Shown here one piece after another: positions 1 through 58,534 of a stretch of DNA of 64,000 bases. The DNA lies in IMG/VR virus record IMGVR_UViG_3300021256_000064, positions 1-64,000 of that record. One strand, 5' to 3'. Origin of the DNA: a virus. A program made the translations under genes and the position numbers. Below the pieces are notes generated by a model. The model saw nothing but the letters and a program-made list of their open reading frames with translations, ran no database searches and was not told the origin of the DNA. Numbering within the stretch: the stretch's first letter is position 1; each line of letters begins with the position of its first letter.

Positions 1-638
1 GATATTTTCCATATATCTCATTTTCTTTTATAAGAGTTCTTTCTCGAATTCCAATTAATCTGTTATCTATGTCATAATGTGGAATAACAATTCCTTCGCT
101 TATTGGATTATAACATATACCTCTTGACTCCATTATATCAAATGTTATACCTTCTTGTTCCCAGGGGAAGATACGGGGATGAGGTAAATATTTTAATATT
201 TTATCATCATAAGTTTTTAATTCTATAATTTGTGGTTGAGATTTTTCTTTATTTCTTTTAAAATTATTAATAATTTTCCAATCTTCATTAGCGTCTTGAT
301 TATCTTCAAAATCAAATATTTCAGCTGTATATCCAAAATATCTAGCTACAAAAGATATTGCTCTAGAAAGAGAAAAGTTCTCAATGCCTGCGGTTTTATT
401 TACTCTTAAAACTAAATCATATATGTCAAATGATGCATCTCCACATCCTGTATAACAATGAAATAAATGAGTATTTTCATAGTAATAAAGTTTATGGCTA
501 TCGCCGCCATGACAGATAGTGCGGGCGGTGAATAATCCATTACCCATAATTGGTTCACCGCCTAATTCGCTAACTAAATCAAATACTTCTTCTATTGATA
601 AGTTTTCTTTTAAAGTGTCTTTATCATATTTGTACATT
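1..638 (-). CDS. DNA primase, DnaG-like zinc-binding domain; partial, runs off the window start
   Basis: Minus-strand frame starting with an ATG at 636-638 reads MYKYDKDTLKENLSIEEVFDLV...ICHGGDSHKLYYYENTHLFHCYTGCGDASFDIYDLV, a CHC2-type primase zinc finger. There is no in-frame stop before the window edge. The ATG overlaps the upstream stop as TAATG. Confidence 0.6.
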
Positions 639-1086
639 ATTCTAATCCTATAGTGTCATAATACTCTTCAGGAATATCTCTGTCTAAAAAGAAATGTCTT
701 AAATCTTGGAGCGCCGATGTATAAGAAAAAGGACTTTGACGTTCCATTTTATTAATTCGCTAACTATCTTTAAAACCAAAATGTCTCCAATGATGTAATC
801 TCATTATTGAATAATATTTTCCAAATATACTGTTATAAACATGTGTGTTTGTAGCAACTCTCATTTCCCACATCATTTTTTCAAACCATACAGTTTCAAT
901 ATAAGGAATGTCAAATAACTACATTATTGGAAAATAAGTCCAAGGCTGACTATCAGAACATCCAATTAATCTACAATCTTTACAATAAATATCTTTCTTG
1001 CCGCCCTCTTTAAAACTAAAAAATCTCTAAATTGGTTTCTATTTTCCGCAATTTAGACAATGCATCTTTATACCTGTTTCTATCAT
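638..1086 (-). CDS. hypothetical CxxC zinc-ribbon protein with 4 in-frame TAG codons; translationally coupled (TAATG) to helicase-side ORF and primase
   Basis: ATG at 1084-1086 and TAA at 638-640. Translation: MIETGIKMHCLNCGK*KPI*RFFSFKEGGKKDIYCKDCRLIGCSDSQPWTYFPIM*LFDIPYIE...KDS*RINKMERQSPFSY...TIGLE. Every asterisk is TAG. Both ends overlap neighbours as TAATG. Confidence 0.5.
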
Positions 1087-1253
1087 TATTTACTCCTTAC
1101 ATATTTTTTATCTCGATATTGTTTTCTAAATATTTTTAATCTTTTACAACTATTACATTTTGTATGATTGTATTTACAATCCCAACAATTATCATTATCC
1201 CACCAAAACCAATTTGGTGGTTGAGGTCTTGGTTTTCTAAATTTTTTTTTCAT
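1086..1253 (-). CDS. small Cys-rich zinc-ribbon protein (55 aa)
   Basis: MKKKFRKPRPQPPNWFWWDNDNCWDCKYNHTKCNSCKRLKIFRKQYRDKKYVRSK. Its ATG overlaps the helicase stop (TAATG) and its TAA overlaps the next ATG (TAATG). Confidence 0.4.
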   Translation of the reverse strand: MKKKFRKPRPQPPNWFWWDNDNCWDCKYNHTKCNSCKRLKIFRKQYRDKKYVRSK

Positions 1254-55196: not shown

Positions 55197-58027
55197 CGTC
55201 TATACTCTCCTTTTATTACATCGCAATAGTAATTAATAATACCATCAATTGGACATAATACTACTCCGTTATTAAAAGGATACCATTTCCCATTATAATA
55301 GATAAATTGTTGTCTATAATCTTCTAAAAGTTTTAATAATAACCGATAATAATCTGACATATGTTCAACAGATTCTGGATTTAGTGCTAAAATATTTATT
55401 TGAGTTTCATATCCCTAAATGTAATAACCTTCAAAATTTACTGTATAAACATGATTGGGTTTAGGATTTGTTATTTCAAAAAAGTTTCTATATTCATTAT
55501 CTTTAATTATGTAATACTAATTATTTCTTAAATATTGACTATTAGATCCCGCCTATAATTGAATACCATAAAAATATAATCCTACAATAGAAGCTTCATC
55601 ATCTTTTAATCTTAAAAATCCATTTTCAATTATATGCCTATTTAACTCAATATCTTTAGAATCTTTTATATAACAAATTGTACCTGGCGGAGCCTCAATT
55701 TCTACACTCTTGACTTCAAGTAGCTATTGATAATAATCATCATATCTCTAAATATACTTATCATATATTTTCTTTATCATATTTTTATTCTATGGAAGAG
55801 AACCATATAACTGACCTACTTTATGATAATAATAATAATTTTTTATTGTATTATCCCTGCTTTCTGTTTCTTCTAAATTAGCTACATATGTAATACTTGC
55901 CGTTACTGGATATGGGAAATTAATAGTTCTTATAGAAACATTATTATTCTTTAATTCAAATTTGCCTAAATAAATAGCATCAGTATTTTTAACAAAATTA
56001 CTTTCATTAATTTCATCCCAAACAATTTGTTCATTATCTTCCTGAGCTGTTGGTAAAGGAGTAATTGGAGAAAAAGTTACTCTTCTCTACATACGAGGAT
56101 TAATAATAATATCTTGTCCATTTATATTTACTATATAGCCATAAGTAGCATTAGATGTGTCATCTTTTTGCTACTTAGGATCAGAACCTTTTGTTAATTT
56201 TCCACTCTATTCAATAATAACATATGGAGTTGATTCAATTTCTATTTTTATCCATTTTAAAGTAGAAACTGTGTTCTAAAATCCCTATAAAGCACGACCT
56301 TTATATTTATTATTAATTTTTGACATAATATCGCCGCTAAGTTCTCCATAGAGTTGTCCAAAAACTTCTTCCTTATGAGTAACTTGAGTCTAATATTCTC
56401 CTGTTAATTGAATATTATATTTGTCATAATTTTTAATACTAGCTTCATCTACTTCTATTGCGGTTGCGGTAAATGAATAAAGTCTTCGACCTAATATTTC
56501 AATAGGCTGAAAATCTATATTCATTAATTTTACTAAAATATTACCTTCTGTTGTAGATCTAAATAATTTTACATTATGCTAATATAAAAAATCATATACC
56601 TTTTCTCTAAATTCTCTCTCATAGATAAAATCATTATATTCATCTATTCTATTATTCCAATTATAATTCTAATAAAGATTTGAAGAAGTTGAATAGATTT
56701 CTTCTTTTGAAGTAAATAATTTTAATTCATTTTGATCGTTTTTAAATTGACCATCTTCAAAATGTGGATTATACCAATCTGTAGTGTCTGATAAAGAAGA
56801 TATTAAACCGCCAATAGGAAAGCTTCTAAAATAATTTGCTCCATTCCTTTTAATATAAGGATACTTAGAGCCTATTGTATTTTGTTGAACTTCAGTTACA
56901 TTATATTTAAATTCATTCAAACTAGGATTGAATTGTATTTTTAATTGTCTATCTTTTGTTGATAAAAAGATATGCTAAAAAATACAAATAACTGGTTTCT
57001 AAGTTTGAACTATAACGCCGCGGTCTCCAAAAACATTTCTTTTTTGAATTCCATATTTATACCAAACGCCACTTTCAATAGTATTATCATAAATAGATAA
57101 ATCTAAAGGGCGGCTATCTAAAAAAGTATAATTTTTTATATCTTCCCATTTATGAAAATCAGATTTTGAAGAAGTTCTTCGAATAGTAAAATTTCCAATG
57201 AAATCTTTATCTGAAGTAGGCGTTATTTTAATCATAATTCTACCATTTTCTTCGTCTGGAAAAGCGGTTAAATTAGCATCAATTGCATCAAAGCCATACT
57301 CAATAATAACAAAATTATATGTTTTAGTTTCGGTATAACCATTATTAGTTGTATATGTAAACTACATTGTATAGTCAATACTATTTAATAATTCTTCTTC
57401 TATCTCATAATAAAAACTATTTGGATCATTAATATTAGTATATATTTGATCCGTTTGTAAAGTAACATTCGTAGGATCTTCAGTTTGATAAATTTTTATT
57501 TTATAATCTCTTAAATACTCTCTATCATTTTGTTCAAATTTTAAATATCCATTAATAGAAAGTGTGGATGAATTAAAAGTTGTTTTCTAAGCCTATTCAT
57601 TAAAACCATTAATATAAAGAATTGGTGTAGAGATTTTCTTTATTAAACAAACTTTTGACCACTATGAAAAATATCCTCGATTCTCATAAAACCAAGATGT
57701 TGTAAAATCTCCAGCTCTTAAATCTTTAGATGTAAACCGCATTTGAACTTTATAAAACTAGTTCTGTTCAAAAGAACCTCGGATGTCGCTTTCTTTAATA
57801 GAAACGCAATACTTATCATCATTTAATTCTAATGTTGCCATCTTTATTCCAGATGGAGTATTAATCATAGATGTATTAGTGCTTTGTTTTATTACTGTTA
57901 TCTGCACTAATGATGTATTAATATCATTAATAGAATTAAATGGAGATAATTCAAAAAAGATTTTAAATGAATTATTTATAAATGCTGGAGCCGAATCTAA
58001 TAAAATAGGCGGATATAATAAAGCCAT
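55193..58027 (-). CDS. large baseplate / tail structural protein, 945 codons, recoded (about 30 TAG)
   Basis: RBS AAAAGGAGTGTATAATG. The frame-1 segments at 57758..58027, 56999..57235 and 56669..56920 are continuous when TAG is read as sense. Ends with TGA overlapping the next ATG. Confidence 0.45.
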
Positions 58028-58058
58028 TTTTATACACTCCTTTTATCTCTTTTTATTT

Positions 58059-58534
58059 CTAATTTTTCCATGGATTTTGATTAGGTAAATTTCTTAATTC
58101 TTCCATAAGCCCACTAATAAATGAGTTACCTTTATAATCCACATAATGTTGATAACGTCTTTCTAGACAATCTAAACTGAAATCATCAATCCAGCCTAGT
58201 TGATAACAATAATAATGATGTTCTTTTGTTATATAAGACTTAATAGCATCTTTATCTGAATCAATTAACATATCAATTTTAGTAGACAGCTCTTTTAAAA
58301 CTGTGTCAGTTGTTTCTTGGTTTTCTTTTAAGGTATGCATTTCCTAACTTCCTTTTTGTAAACGATTTTCCAATCTCTCTTTTTCATTGATTTTGGAGTG
58401 CTATTTATTAAAAATTCTATAAACATAGCTATAACCCCAATCGAAAAAAGAAATTAGACTTTTTATAGCTAATGCTAATAGAATTGTAAATATGAAAATT
58501 TCAGATAAAGAGTAATTCTAAAGTAGTGCTGCCA
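58059..58534 (-). CDS. small membrane protein (about 155 aa), recoded (3 TAG); ends in TAG 34 nt upstream of the next gene's start
   Basis: RBS AAGGAGG. MAALL*NYSLSEIFIFTILLALAIKSLISFFDWGYSYVYRIFNK*HSKINEKERLENRLQKGS*EMHTLKENQETTDTVLKELSTKIDM... Coordinates are plus or minus 2 nt. Confidence 0.35.

What the first reader, a model, noticed from the sequence alone, without database searches (positions are those of the whole stretch)
638..58534. Genome-wide reassignment of the TAG stop codon to a sense codon
Many genes on both strands only become full-length reading frames if TAG is translated. Examples: tape-measure protein (about 3028 codons, more than 100 TAG); the 1516-codon fibre gene; the 976-, 945- and 675-codon tail genes; the 758-codon lysin; GIY-YIG; the ThyX-like gene; the Sak4-like ATPase, which has a TAG inside its Walker A box; the RuvC-like gene. 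Every ORF-track fragment of each gene sits in one frame, every fragment boundary is TAG, and the true ends are TAA or TGA, often with ATGA or TAATG overlaps to the next gene. TAG runs at about 1 per 25-30 codons in the structural genes, so it behaves like an ordinary sense codon there. Code 15 (TAG to Gln) is the known precedent in recoded gut phages, but the amino acid cannot be read from this window.
Basis: seen in the sequence. Interest (0 to 1): 0.9.

Follow-up and report, generated by a model that had tools for sequence, protein, structure and literature searches.

The report
Phage reads TAG as glutamate
This piece of a ~125-kb gut/rumen phage genome uses the stop codon TAG as an ordinary amino-acid codon in its tail, lysis and some DNA-processing genes, and the evidence says it means glutamate, not the glutamine that every known recoded phage (and every annotation pipeline) assumes.

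Summary
With only TAA and TGA as stops, frames of 3030, 1517, 976, 949, 762 and 686 codons appear. They contain 219 in-frame TAG and no TAA or TGA.

Three details in the finding are wrong. The tape-measure gene has 64 TAG, not more than 100. The density is about 1 per 45-80 codons in tail genes. The recoding is not genome-wide: 23 genes (7,125 codons) contain no TAG. These include the helicase, ligase, gyrase, RNase H, RNA-repair genes and the Ro-like gene.

The code-15 precedent (TAG = Gln) does not fit. Codon-level alignments to about 150 related contigs cover 165 TAG positions in two independent regions. Glu is favoured over Gln by 55 and 25 log-likelihood units. A sister clade scores as Gln with the same method, which serves as an internal control.

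TAG sits on the catalytic Glu of the lysin's GH73 domain. Relatives carry GAA or TAG at that codon.

The same genome carries a tRNA(CUA) 1.2 kb beyond the window end. Its acceptor and D-arm signature matched only tRNA-Glu genes among the bacterial tRNAs sampled (115 of 115, nearly all from Bacillota).

Public databases hold these proteins with Q at every TAG position. I found no published report of TAG = Glu in phages.

The parts
28050..37142 (+). Tail tape-measure gene, 3028 codons from the ATG. It has 64 in-frame TAG and no TAA or TGA.
   Evidence: PHROG tape-measure families match the TAG-free segment 29022-29618 (phrog_4211, 1.4e-32).
37436..41989 (+). Large gene of 1516 codons with 30 TAG, next to the tape-measure gene and probably a tail or fibre gene. 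No family match was found.
   Evidence: no PHROG hit on three TAG-free segments. TAG columns alternate with GAA/GAG in relatives.
42274..42765 (-). RuvC-like Holliday-junction resolvase, 162 codons, 8 TAG. Codon 63 (42574-42576) is TAG and follows the presumed catalytic Glu62.
   Evidence: phrog_827 and phrog_159 match full length. In relatives the TAG positions are GAA/GAG. The closest relative, L001, has TAG at both codons 62 and 63.
46889..58574 (-). Tail-gene block. The 626-codon SGNH-esterase fibre gene has 1 TAG, and the 975-, 239-, 674-, 944- and 160-codon genes have 12, 3, 12, 21 and 4 TAG. Two smaller ORFs (64 and 125 codons, 2 and 1 TAG) lie in the same block.
   Evidence: Codon-level alignments show TAG interchanging with GAA and GAG.
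15237..17525 (-). Endolysin (GH73 glucosaminidase + Amidase_2 + 2x PG_binding_1 + SH3_3), 757 codons, 13 TAG. The TAG at 17403-17405 (codon 36) lies on the GH73 catalytic Glu.
   Evidence: Pfam. The PDB alignment to FlgJ puts the TAG opposite the E of 'AALETGWG'; entry 3k3t has A at this column ('AALATGWG'), and that it is the E-to-A catalytic mutant is my recollection. Relatives carry GAA x7 and TAG x2 at this codon.
5956..7592 (-).
   Evidence: At positions 80, 155 and 191 of the phrog_6721 protein, relatives have real Glu codons in 26/26, 37/38 and 35/35 cases. At GIY-YIG position 280 the count is E 46/51.
3403..4446 (-). AAA_24 (Sak4-like) ATPase with 2 TAG. One of them (4360-4362) is inside the Walker A motif G-TAG-PKSGKT.
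   Evidence: Pfam AAA_24, 1.8e-35. This column is variable in relatives (G 8, E 7, P 7), so it does not identify the amino acid.
637..1089 (-). Small YonG_N-like gene, 149 codons, 4 TAG.
8013..15218 (-). TAG-free block: NAD-dependent DNA ligase, GyrA, an 83-codon ORF, GyrB and RNase H.
   Evidence: Pfam. Zero TAG.
18641..27875 (-). Almost TAG-free block: phosphatases, AAA_33 kinase, RNA ligase, a vault/MVP-like protein, RlaP and an SPFH protein. The only TAG is at codon 3 of the SPFH ORF.
58784..60355 (-). TAG-free Ro-like DUF2828/DUF7788 gene. It was used as the anchor to fetch relatives and the source scaffold.
60397..63397 (-). First 13 genes of a 24-gene tRNA array. No CUA tRNA lies inside the window. 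In the same genome the suppressor tRNA(CUA) is at L091 5048-5121, which corresponds to about 65,181-65,254, or 1.2 kb past the window end. tRNA-Glu(UUC) and a TAG-free sigma-70 gene lie further upstream.
   Evidence: L091 is 100% identical to window 48790-64000.

Best explanation
**What it is.** The window is 64 kb of a ~125-kb siphophage genome, apparently from a gut or rumen metagenome. The phage has an SPbeta-like replication module. Its most likely hosts are Bacillota.

**How TAG is used.** In a defined subset of genes, TAG is an ordinary sense codon. It supplies about 24% of the glutamate codons in those genes. The subset comprises the tape measure, the tail proteins, the endolysin, RuvC, GIY-YIG, the phrog_6721 protein and the AAA_24 ATPase.

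**How it is decoded.** A phage-encoded amber suppressor tRNA (anticodon CUA) sits in the tRNA array just outside the window. Its body is that of a Bacillota-type tRNA-Glu.
- Inferred: the host glutamyl-tRNA synthetase charges it with Glu.
- Inferred: the amidotransferase GatCAB then leaves it alone, so it stays Glu-tRNA. It has a G-C or C-G first base pair and the longer tRNA-Glu-type D-loop. GatCAB requires U1-A72 and the shorter tRNA-Gln D-loop.

**Regulation.** Replication, topology, RNA-repair and sigma-factor genes contain no TAG, so they can be translated with the host's standard code. The TAG-rich late and lysis genes can only be completed once the suppressor has accumulated. This makes a translational lock on late functions.

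**Shown:** TAG is sense. TAG columns behave like Glu codons. The suppressor gene exists and is Glu-like. Genes fall into TAG-free and TAG-using sets.

**Inferred:** which enzyme charges the tRNA, how host RF1 is outcompeted, and the timing role.
For: **1. TAG is sense.**
- 219 in-frame TAG against 0 TAA/TGA in frames of up to 3030 codons.
- Profile and homologue matches run full length across the TAGs.

**2. TAG means Glu.**
- In RuvC, the window's TAG positions are GAA or GAG in relatives, and the reverse also occurs.
- In the first set of relatives (123 TAG positions), the window's TAG columns align to E 26%, TAG 15%, K 8%, D 8%, Q 7%. That is the profile of GAA/GAG columns, not of CAA/CAG columns.
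- On the same set, empirical likelihood gives Glu -301.8, Gln -357.1, Lys -367.0.
- An independent second region (42 positions) again puts Glu first, by 25.5 over Gln.
- Among strongly conserved TAG columns, 22 are E and 4 are Q.
- Per-contig inference gives E for the window's clade (log-likelihood margins of about 7-45 for contigs with at least 15 usable positions). It gives Q for the sister clade L021-L031 (margins 9-22). So the method can tell the two apart.
- The TAG at lysin codon 36 aligns to the catalytic Glu of GH73 in solved FlgJ structures. Relatives carry GAA at that codon.
- PHROG profiles score the TAG-to-E translation highest for 3 of 4 families.

**3. The suppressor tRNA.**
- tRNA(CUA) lies at L091 5048-5121 in the same genome. 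It scores 62.8 bits against the Rfam tRNA model.
- It shares D-loop length and a G/C first pair with the phage tRNA-Glu, not with tRNA-Gln.
- The nearest annotated phage tRNAs are tRNA-Glu.
- Its acceptor + D-arm signature hit 120 bacterial loci, nearly all Bacillota. All 115 tRNAs called at those hits are tRNA-Glu.
- GatCAB recognition rules are taken from PMC2811023.

**4. Two gene classes.** 23 TAG-free genes hold 0 TAG where 142 would be expected. The sigma-70, PolIII-alpha and helicase genes just outside the window are also TAG-free.
Against: - There is no protein-level evidence. Everything rests on comparative sequence.
- TAG columns are less conserved than GAA/GAG columns. In strongly conserved columns 58% are E, against about 90% for GAA/GAG. 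They also show a small excess of Q-conserved columns (4 of 38). This could reflect easy CAG-to-TAG transitions, or some Gln insertion.
- One clade member, L015, scored weakly as Q (margin 3.9).
- The suppressor carries C34 and A36. The known E. coli GluRS identity set includes U34 and C36 (PMC9976931).
- This genome's copy has a 5-nt variable loop. Typical tRNA-Glu has 4 nt, as do the L013 and L014 suppressors.
- Overall sequence identity to tRNA-Glu is only modestly higher than to tRNA-Gln (0.55 against 0.45).
- The bacterial tRNA pattern was designed from the suppressor, with tRNA-Glu in mind.
- The host is unknown.
- No release-factor or synthetase gene was seen. About 45 kb of the genome was not examined.
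- 64 TAG in a single gene demands very efficient suppression. How that is achieved is unexplained.
Confidence: 0.8

Rival explanations
1. Standard phage code 15. TAG is read as glutamine by a Gln-type amber suppressor, as in crAss-like, Lak and phAss-1 phages.
For: - This is the only TAG reassignment reported for phages whose code differs from their host's (Borges et al. preprint; phAss-1).
- Sister clades of this same family score as Gln.
- A few TAG columns are Q-conserved.
- Public databases already hold these proteins with Q.
Against: - The likelihood deficit is 55 + 25 log units over 165 positions.
- TAG interchanges with GAA/GAG, not with CAA/CAG.
- One TAG lies on the GH73 catalytic Glu.
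- The suppressor lacks the weak 1-72 pair seen in all 78 tRNA-Gln of the family (U-A, A-U, U·G or G·U). It also lacks the G73 seen in the Gln-type CUA tRNAs of relatives.
- The Q's in databases are a translation convention, not evidence.
Confidence: 0.06
2. Ambiguous decoding. The suppressor is glutamylated and then partly transamidated, or is charged by more than one enzyme. TAG positions then receive a mixture of Glu and Gln.
For: - TAG columns are noisier than GAA/GAG columns and show a small excess of Q-conserved columns.
- The family contains both Q-type and E-type lineages, which suggests an evolutionary path through an ambiguous state.
Against: - The share of Q opposite TAG (7%) is close to that opposite GAA/GAG (5%).
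- The suppressor carries both GatCAB anti-determinants: a G-C/C-G first pair and the longer D-loop.
- Catalytic-site use of TAG argues for reliable Glu.
Confidence: 0.1
3. TAG is not reassigned. The fragments are pseudogenes or separate genes, or the TAGs are assembly or base-modification artefacts, with at most low-level read-through.
For: No CUA tRNA lies inside the window itself.
Against: - Zero TAA/TGA in 3030 codons.
- The same sequences occur in independent assemblies from ENA and JGI.
- Dozens of related contigs have TAG at homologous and at different positions.
- Domain matches run full length across the TAGs.
- The CUA tRNA lies 1.2 kb outside the window.
Confidence: 0.01
4. TAG encodes another residue, such as Lys, Asp, or a non-canonical amino acid such as pyrrolysine.
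For: - ARAGORN labels the CUA tRNA 'tRNA-Pyl'. That is only its name for this anticodon.
- Some TAG columns are K- or D-majority.
Against: - Lys and Asp are 65 and 74 log units worse than Glu in set 1, and 27 and 38 worse in set 2.
- The tRNA is a normal cloverleaf with a tRNA-Glu-type acceptor stem and D-arm.
- No pyl genes were seen in the 84 kb examined.
Confidence: 0.03

Closest known systems
TAG-recoded ('code 15') gut phages: crAss-like phages, Lak megaphages, and the Agate, Garnet and similar clades of Borges et al.; also phAss-1 (Babkin et al. 2023)
   Same: - In-frame TAG is concentrated in structural and lysis genes.
- Early and replication genes are TAG-free.
- The phage encodes a tRNA(CUA) within a tRNA array.
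- Coding density is low under table 11.
- The proposed role is a translational lock on late genes.
   Different: - Those phages are inferred to read TAG as Gln. For crAss-like phages this has been shown by proteomics (PMC9523058).
- Here the comparative signal and the suppressor body both point to Glu.
- Borges et al. state that they observed only TAG-to-Gln and TGA-to-Trp.
Sister clade of the same phage family (contigs L021-L031 and L044, about 65% identical in the Ro-like protein)
   Same: They share gene content and synteny around the tRNA array, and they also use TAG as a sense codon.
   Different: - Their TAG columns align to Gln (margins 9-22).
- Their TAG use is much lighter. Coverage by long ORFs (at least 100 codons) rises from about 0.75 to 0.85, against 0.35-0.57 to about 0.8 in the window's clade.
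- Other relatives that score as Gln carry CUA tRNAs with a weak or mismatched 1-72 pair and G73. Most of these margins are small.
Peritrich ciliate nuclear code (NCBI table 30: TAA and TAG = Glu)
   Same: TAG is read as glutamate (from my own knowledge of the NCBI tables).
   Different: That code is eukaryotic and nuclear, and it also reassigns TAA. Here TAA is the main stop codon (40 of 48 genes), and only part of the genome uses TAG.
Large siphophages of Bacillota: SPbeta-like phages and Bacillus phages Tsamsa and PBC2
   Same: - Pfam families named after SPbeta proteins match window genes (YorF, YorH, YonG_N). A PolIII-alpha gene is also present.
- The Ro-like DUF2828 protein is about 40% identical to those of Bacillus phages Thrax3, PBC2 and Tsamsa.
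- The genome size is similar and the tape measure is very long.
   Different: - As far as I know, those phages use the standard code.
- There is no nucleotide-level similarity to any GenBank phage, tested for window 1-25000.

Membership tests
Stop-codon-recoded (alternatively coded) phage, TAG type | Conserved genes contain many in-frame TAG but no in-frame TAA or TGA, and long ORFs are restored when TAG is read through. | tested here: met
   219 TAG and 0 TAA/TGA. Codons in ORFs of at least 100 codons rise from 15,399 to 24,460.
Stop-codon-recoded (alternatively coded) phage, TAG type | The phage encodes a suppressor tRNA with anticodon CUA. | tested here: met
   It is not in the window. It is in the same genome, 1.2 kb beyond the window end, at L091 5048-5121. 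It is conserved in relatives.
Stop-codon-recoded (alternatively coded) phage, TAG type | The recoded codon is avoided in early and replication genes and enriched in late and lysis genes. | tested here: met
   Exceptions: RuvC, GIY-YIG, phrog_6721, AAA_24 and DHH use TAG although they are DNA-processing genes.
Stop-codon-recoded (alternatively coded) phage, TAG type | The phage carries a release-factor gene (RF2) or another means of neutralising RF1. | not tested
   None was seen in the 84 kb examined (window + L091 + L215). About 45 kb of the scaffold was not read.
Genetic code 15 (TAG = Gln) | TAG positions align with Gln in homologues. | tested here: not met
   Glu is favoured over Gln by 55.3 and 25.5 log units. 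One TAG lies on a catalytic Glu.
Genetic code 15 (TAG = Gln) | The suppressor tRNA has tRNA-Gln character: a weak U1-A72-type first pair, G73 and a short D-loop. | tested here: not met
   The first pair is C1-G72 or G1-C72. The discriminator is A73 or C73. The D-loop is 2 nt longer than in the family's tRNA-Gln.
TAG = Glu reassignment through a tRNA-Glu-derived suppressor (proposed here) | TAG interchanges with GAA and GAG at conserved positions in relatives. | tested here: met
TAG = Glu reassignment through a tRNA-Glu-derived suppressor (proposed here) | The body of the suppressor is diagnostic of tRNA-Glu. | tested here: met
   The signature GCCCGNTNGTNNAGNGGN{2,3}AANAC matched 115 of 115 tRNA-Glu genes in bacterial genomes.
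TAG = Glu reassignment through a tRNA-Glu-derived suppressor (proposed here) | Glu is physically present at TAG positions, and the tRNA is charged by GluRS and not transamidated. | not testable with these tools
   This needs proteomics and aminoacylation assays.
Pyrrolysine decoding of TAG | pylTSBCD genes are present, along with the atypical tRNA-Pyl shape (small D-loop, 3-nt variable loop). | tested here: not met
   The tRNA is a canonical cloverleaf with an 11-nt D-loop region and a 5-nt variable loop. No pyl genes appear among the annotated genes.

The most novel reading that the evidence does not exclude
A clade of large phages, probably infecting Bacillota and apparently from rumen or gut samples, has reassigned TAG to glutamate. 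It does so with a tRNA-Glu-derived amber suppressor. Sister clades of the same family read TAG as glutamine.

If correct:
- This would be the first stop-to-Glu code reported in a phage or prokaryote.
- It would be a natural case of one codon carrying two meanings among close relatives.
- It would show that GluRS can also be co-opted for phage code change, not only GlnRS and TrpRS.
Probability: 0.65. Interest if true: 0.85.

Novelty: new variant of a known kind. Interest (0 to 1): 0.8.

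Why it matters
1. **It would add a third amino acid to phage stop-codon recoding.** Only Gln and Trp are known for phages whose code differs from their host's. It would weaken the idea that only glutaminyl- and tryptophanyl-tRNA synthetases can be hijacked for this purpose.

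2. **It offers a testable explanation for the Glu/Gln split.** Most Bacillota lack GlnRS and make Gln-tRNA through GluRS plus GatCAB. In such hosts a CUA suppressor would end up carrying Glu or Gln depending on two features, the first base pair and the D-loop. That would account for Q-type and E-type lineages sitting side by side in one family.

3. **It has a practical consequence for annotation.** Gene callers that recognise TAG recoding translate TAG with table 15. The public protein collection searched here holds these proteins with Q at every TAG. If TAG is Glu, about 1% of residues in these proteins are wrong, including catalytic ones such as the GH73 Glu. That affects homology searches and structure prediction for this clade.

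4. **It may be useful for genetic-code engineering.** A natural, highly efficient Glu-inserting amber suppressor would be of interest there. The tape-measure gene alone must be read through 64 TAG codons.

Tried and rejected
- **Megablast of window 1-25000 against GenBank phages.** No match. A second call failed on a length limit.
- **PDB sequence searches for RuvC and AAA_24.** No hits, so no structural check of those TAG sites.
- **Pairwise similarity of the CUA tRNAs to the 837 family tRNAs.** No clear isotype emerged; the top hits were Cys, Trp, Thr or Lys at low scores. D-stem and D-loop geometry alone is also shared with Cys and Leu. I replaced this with the signature scan of bacterial genomes.
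- **Host search with the lysin against genome contigs.** Nothing found. The host stays inferred.
- **Rfam scan around the suppressor for theta/HDV-like ribozymes or other RNAs.** Only tRNAs were found.
- **Residues at TAG columns in database homologues.** These show E first and Q second. I set aside the Q counts because the database translates TAG as Q for this genome's own proteins. I redid the test at codon level.
- **Walker-A TAG as evidence for the amino acid.** Rejected because the column is variable.
- **Literature searches for TAG-to-Glu in phages.** Nothing found. Only open-access papers and bioRxiv were covered.
- **Pyrrolysine.** Rejected. 'tRNA-Pyl' is only ARAGORN's label for the CUA anticodon.

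Full report
**1. The observation**

The window has 31% G+C. I allowed only TAA and TGA to end a frame. Long frames then appear exactly where the finding says:

| Coordinates | Strand | Codons | In-frame TAG |
|---|---|---|---|
| 28050-37142 | + | 3030 | 64 |
| 37436-41989 | + | 1517 | 30 |
| 49494-52424 | - | 976 | 12 |
| 55193-58042 | - | 949 | 21 |
| 53172-55232 | - | 686 | 13 |
| 15237-17525 | - | 762 | 13 |

Several shorter frames appear as well. The tape-measure frame has no TAA or TGA in 3028 codons. The other two frames of the same DNA have 153 and 415. Reading through TGA brings no comparable gain.

These frames are real genes:
- Pfam finds GH73, Amidase_2, two PG_binding_1 domains and SH3_3 along the lysin.
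- Pfam finds AAA_24 across the Walker-A TAG, and GIY-YIG.
- PHROG profiles match the 219-codon protein over residues 2-217 across 10 TAG.
- PHROG profiles match the RuvC-like protein over residues 1-154 across 8 TAG.
- Tape-measure families match a TAG-free segment of the 3028-codon gene.
- Thousands of full-length homologues exist.

All 48 complete called genes end in TAA (40) or TGA (8).

Corrections to the finding:
- The tape measure has 64 TAG, not more than 100.
- Tail genes carry 12-22 TAG per 1000 codons, which is about 1 per 45-80 codons.
- 'ThyX-like' has no Pfam support.

**2. The recoding is not genome-wide**

Twenty-three called genes, 7,125 codons in all, contain no TAG. At the rate seen in TAG-using genes, 142 would be expected.

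The TAG-free set:
- DnaB, the primase fragment, NAD-dependent ligase, GyrA, GyrB and RNase H
- an RNA ligase, an AAA_33 kinase, two metallophosphatases and RlaP
- a vault/MVP-like protein
- the Ro-like DUF2828/DUF7788 protein

Just outside the window, the sigma-70, PolIII-alpha and helicase genes are also TAG-free.

In the TAG-using genes, TAG makes up 24% of TAG + GAA + GAG. This is the early/late split described for recoded phages (Borges et al. preprint). There are exceptions: some DNA-processing genes use TAG heavily (RuvC, GIY-YIG, phrog_6721 and DHH).

**3. Which amino acid**

I aligned 240 database homologues of the phrog_6721 and RuvC proteins. At the 18 TAG positions they mostly had E, with Q second.

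The Q's are not independent evidence. The public collection holds this genome's own two proteins with Q at every TAG, and does not hold the E versions.

So I worked at codon level on DNA of related viral contigs. I fetched three sets:

| Anchor gene | Loci |
|---|---|
| RuvC | L001-L010 |
| Ro-like gene | L011-L090 |
| GyrA | L216-L285 |

Results:
- **RuvC.** The window's TAG codons are GAA or GAG in relatives. Relatives have TAG where the window has GAA. This includes codon 62 of the closest relative, the presumed catalytic Glu of the 'VME' motif. Calling it catalytic is my inference from RuvC motifs.
- **Set 1, profile.** The window's TAG columns pair with E 26%, TAG 15%, K 8%, D 8% and Q 7%. 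GAA/GAG columns give E 47-49% and Q 5%. CAA/CAG columns give Q 47% and E 8-15%.
- **Set 1, likelihood.** I built an empirical likelihood from the same alignments, over 123 TAG positions. It gives Glu -301.8, Gln -357.1, Lys -367.0 and Asp -375.4.
- **Set 2.** The independent GyrA-anchored set adds 42 positions. Glu is again first, by 25.5 over Gln.
- **Invariant columns.** Several columns carry only real Glu codons in relatives, alternating with TAG. For phrog_6721 positions 80, 155 and 191 the counts are 26/26, 37/38 and 35/35. For GIY-YIG position 280 the count is 46/51.
- **Catalytic site.** The TAG at lysin codon 36 (17403-17405) aligns to the catalytic Glu of GH73 in solved FlgJ structures, 'AAL-E-TGWG'. 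Entry 3k3t has A at this column; that it is the E-to-A catalytic mutant is my recollection. Relatives have GAA (7) or TAG (2) at this codon.
- **Curated profiles.** Substituting E at TAG gives the best PHROG profile score for three of four families. The margins are small, 1-4 bits over Q.

**Internal control.** I applied the same inference to each contig. The window's clade comes out as E: L001, L005, L008, L009, L011, L014, L017-L020, L035, L049 and L071, with margins of about 7 to 45. The sister clade (L021-L031, L044) comes out as Q, with margins of 9 to 22. Some relatives are barely recoded at all. L015 is weakly Q and remains unexplained.

**4. The decoding tRNA**

No CUA tRNA lies in the window.

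An exact-protein look-up found the source: ENA ERZ28612970, scaffold_240, 124,598 bp. Locus L091 is 100% identical to window 48790-64000. Locus L215 is 99.93% identical to window 1-12797.

In that genome the tRNA array has 24 genes. A tRNA(CUA) sits 1.2 kb beyond the window end, at L091 5048-5121. It forms a normal cloverleaf and scores 62.8 bits against the Rfam tRNA model. Homologous suppressors occur in the E-clade relatives.

Evidence on its identity:
- **Compared with the family's tRNA-Gln.** All 78 tRNA-Gln have a weak first pair (U-A, A-U, U·G or G·U). The suppressors have C-G or G-C at 1-72. Their D-loop is two bases longer, as in the phage tRNA-Glu.
- **Variable loop.** The L013 and L014 suppressors also share the 4-nt variable loop of tRNA-Glu.
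- **Overall identity.** 0.55 to tRNA-Glu against 0.45 to tRNA-Gln.
- **Nearest annotated tRNAs.** In GenBank phages these are tRNA-Glu.
- **Signature scan.** Nearly all are Bacillota. All 115 tRNA genes called at the hits are tRNA-Glu (98 UUC, 17 CUC). The best of them share about 54 of 71 non-anticodon positions with the suppressor.
- **Contrast with Q-scoring relatives.** CUA tRNAs in several relatives that score as Gln have a weak or mismatched 1-72 pair and G73. Most of those margins are small.

**5. Mechanism**

The mechanism is inferred from established knowledge.

Bacterial GatCAB accepts Glu-tRNA only if it has U1-A72. It rejects tRNA-Glu because of G1-C72 and the extra D-loop base (PMC2811023). 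Most bacteria lack GlnRS and use a non-discriminating GluRS (PMC9976931).

In such a host, a tRNA-Glu-bodied CUA suppressor would be glutamylated and would stay Glu-tRNA.

Weak points:
- C34 and A36 differ from the E. coli GluRS identity set. However, CUC isoacceptors are natural in the matched bacteria (17 of 115), so C34 is tolerated there.
- This genome's suppressor has a 5-nt variable loop.
- The host is unknown.
- How RF1 is outcompeted is unknown. The tape measure alone has 64 TAG.

The layout fits a late-gene lock, but the timing has not been shown. A TAG-free sigma factor comes first, then the tRNA array with the suppressor, then the tail genes, all on one strand.

**6. Context**

- The replication module matches Pfam families named after SPbeta proteins (YorF, YorH, YonG_N). 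A PolIII-alpha gene is also present.
- The nearest cultured relatives of the Ro-like gene are large Bacillus siphophages, at about 40% identity.
- The lysin has a Gram-positive-type architecture.
- There is no nucleotide match to GenBank phages for window 1-25000.

**7. Novelty**

Borges et al. write that they observed only TAG-to-Gln and TGA-to-Trp in phages that differ from their hosts. The phAss-1 paper, the Pharokka-gv paper, the metaproteomic validation and a 2026 jumbo-phage survey all treat TAG recoding as code 15.

Eight full-text searches found no report of TAG = Glu in phages. The library covers only open-access papers and bioRxiv, so I cannot exclude prior work.

**8. Verdict**

| Claim | My confidence |
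|---|---|
| TAG is a sense codon | about 0.97 |
| TAG means Glu | about 0.85 |
| Decoding is by a tRNA-Glu-derived suppressor | about 0.75 |
| TAG acts as a late-gene lock | about 0.5 |

This is a new variant of a known kind of system. It has a practical consequence, because public translations of this clade carry Q where E is most likely correct.

Noticed in passing
window 21862-24390 (-), 25489-27081 (-): An 833-residue TAG-free protein matches the major-vault-protein shoulder domain (9e-24) and the Vault_3 repeat (2e-7). It has no PHROG match. An SPFH/Band_7 + flotillin-domain protein is encoded two genes away. Vault-like proteins are not a usual phage feature.
   Followed up: partly
window 18641-27875 (-) and 58784-60355 (-): A set of genes that looks like an RNA-repair toolkit: RNA ligase, AAA_33 (PNK-like) kinase, two metallophosphatases, an RlaP nucleotidyltransferase, and a Ro-like DUF2828/DUF7788 protein placed directly next to the tRNA array. 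It may serve tRNA repair or quality control.
   Followed up: no
window 4460-5464, 20290-21525, 21862-24390, 58784-60355: In these TAG-free genes the Gln codon preference is reversed: CAA/CAG = 0/8, 2/8, 2/26 and 0/9. Elsewhere CAA far outnumbers CAG. This could reflect recent acquisition or a separate expression class.
   Followed up: no
window 63095-63168 (-); L011 7007-7080: A tRNA with the same body carries anticodon UUG in this genome and GUA in the closest relative. Its body does not look like the family's tRNA-Gln.
   Followed up: partly
window 63003-63083 (-): An odd 81-nt tRNA-like gene. ARAGORN places the UGA anticodon at position 27. Rfam gives only a sub-threshold tRNA-Sec match (37 bits). 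Its anticodon arm is nearly the same as that of the CUA suppressor.
   Followed up: no
L021, L023-L025, L027, L028, L030, L044 (e.g. L021 3764-3837): The Gln-reading sister clade carries a conserved tRNA with an 8-nt anticodon loop (GUUAAAAG) and an encoded CCA end. It might decode four bases or act in frameshifting.
   Followed up: no
L018 6561-6635; L057 1109-1181: tRNAs with anticodon UUA, which would read TAA. One of them is in an E-clade relative that also has the CUA suppressor.
   Followed up: no
L048 1115-1206, L051 6279-6368, L052 4567-4657, L061 3072-3160, L079 6908-6998: More distant family members carry CUA tRNAs with a long variable arm (89-92 nt, Ser/Leu-like shape). The amino acid they insert is unresolved. 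L048 scored as Gln on 15 positions.
   Followed up: partly
L019 8425-8702: A phage-encoded tmRNA (tag peptide ADNYTYQMAA) lies within the tRNA array of an E-clade relative.
   Followed up: no
window 15237-15242 (-): The lysin reading frame ends ...ACA TAG TAA. The last sense codon is a TAG immediately before the stop. This could be a terminal Glu, or a tandem stop that works in both codes.
   Followed up: no
L091 1400-2251 (about 4.3-5.2 kb beyond the window end): A TAG-free sigma-70-family gene lies upstream of the tRNA array and the tail genes, on the same strand. It is a candidate late-transcription factor.
   Followed up: partly
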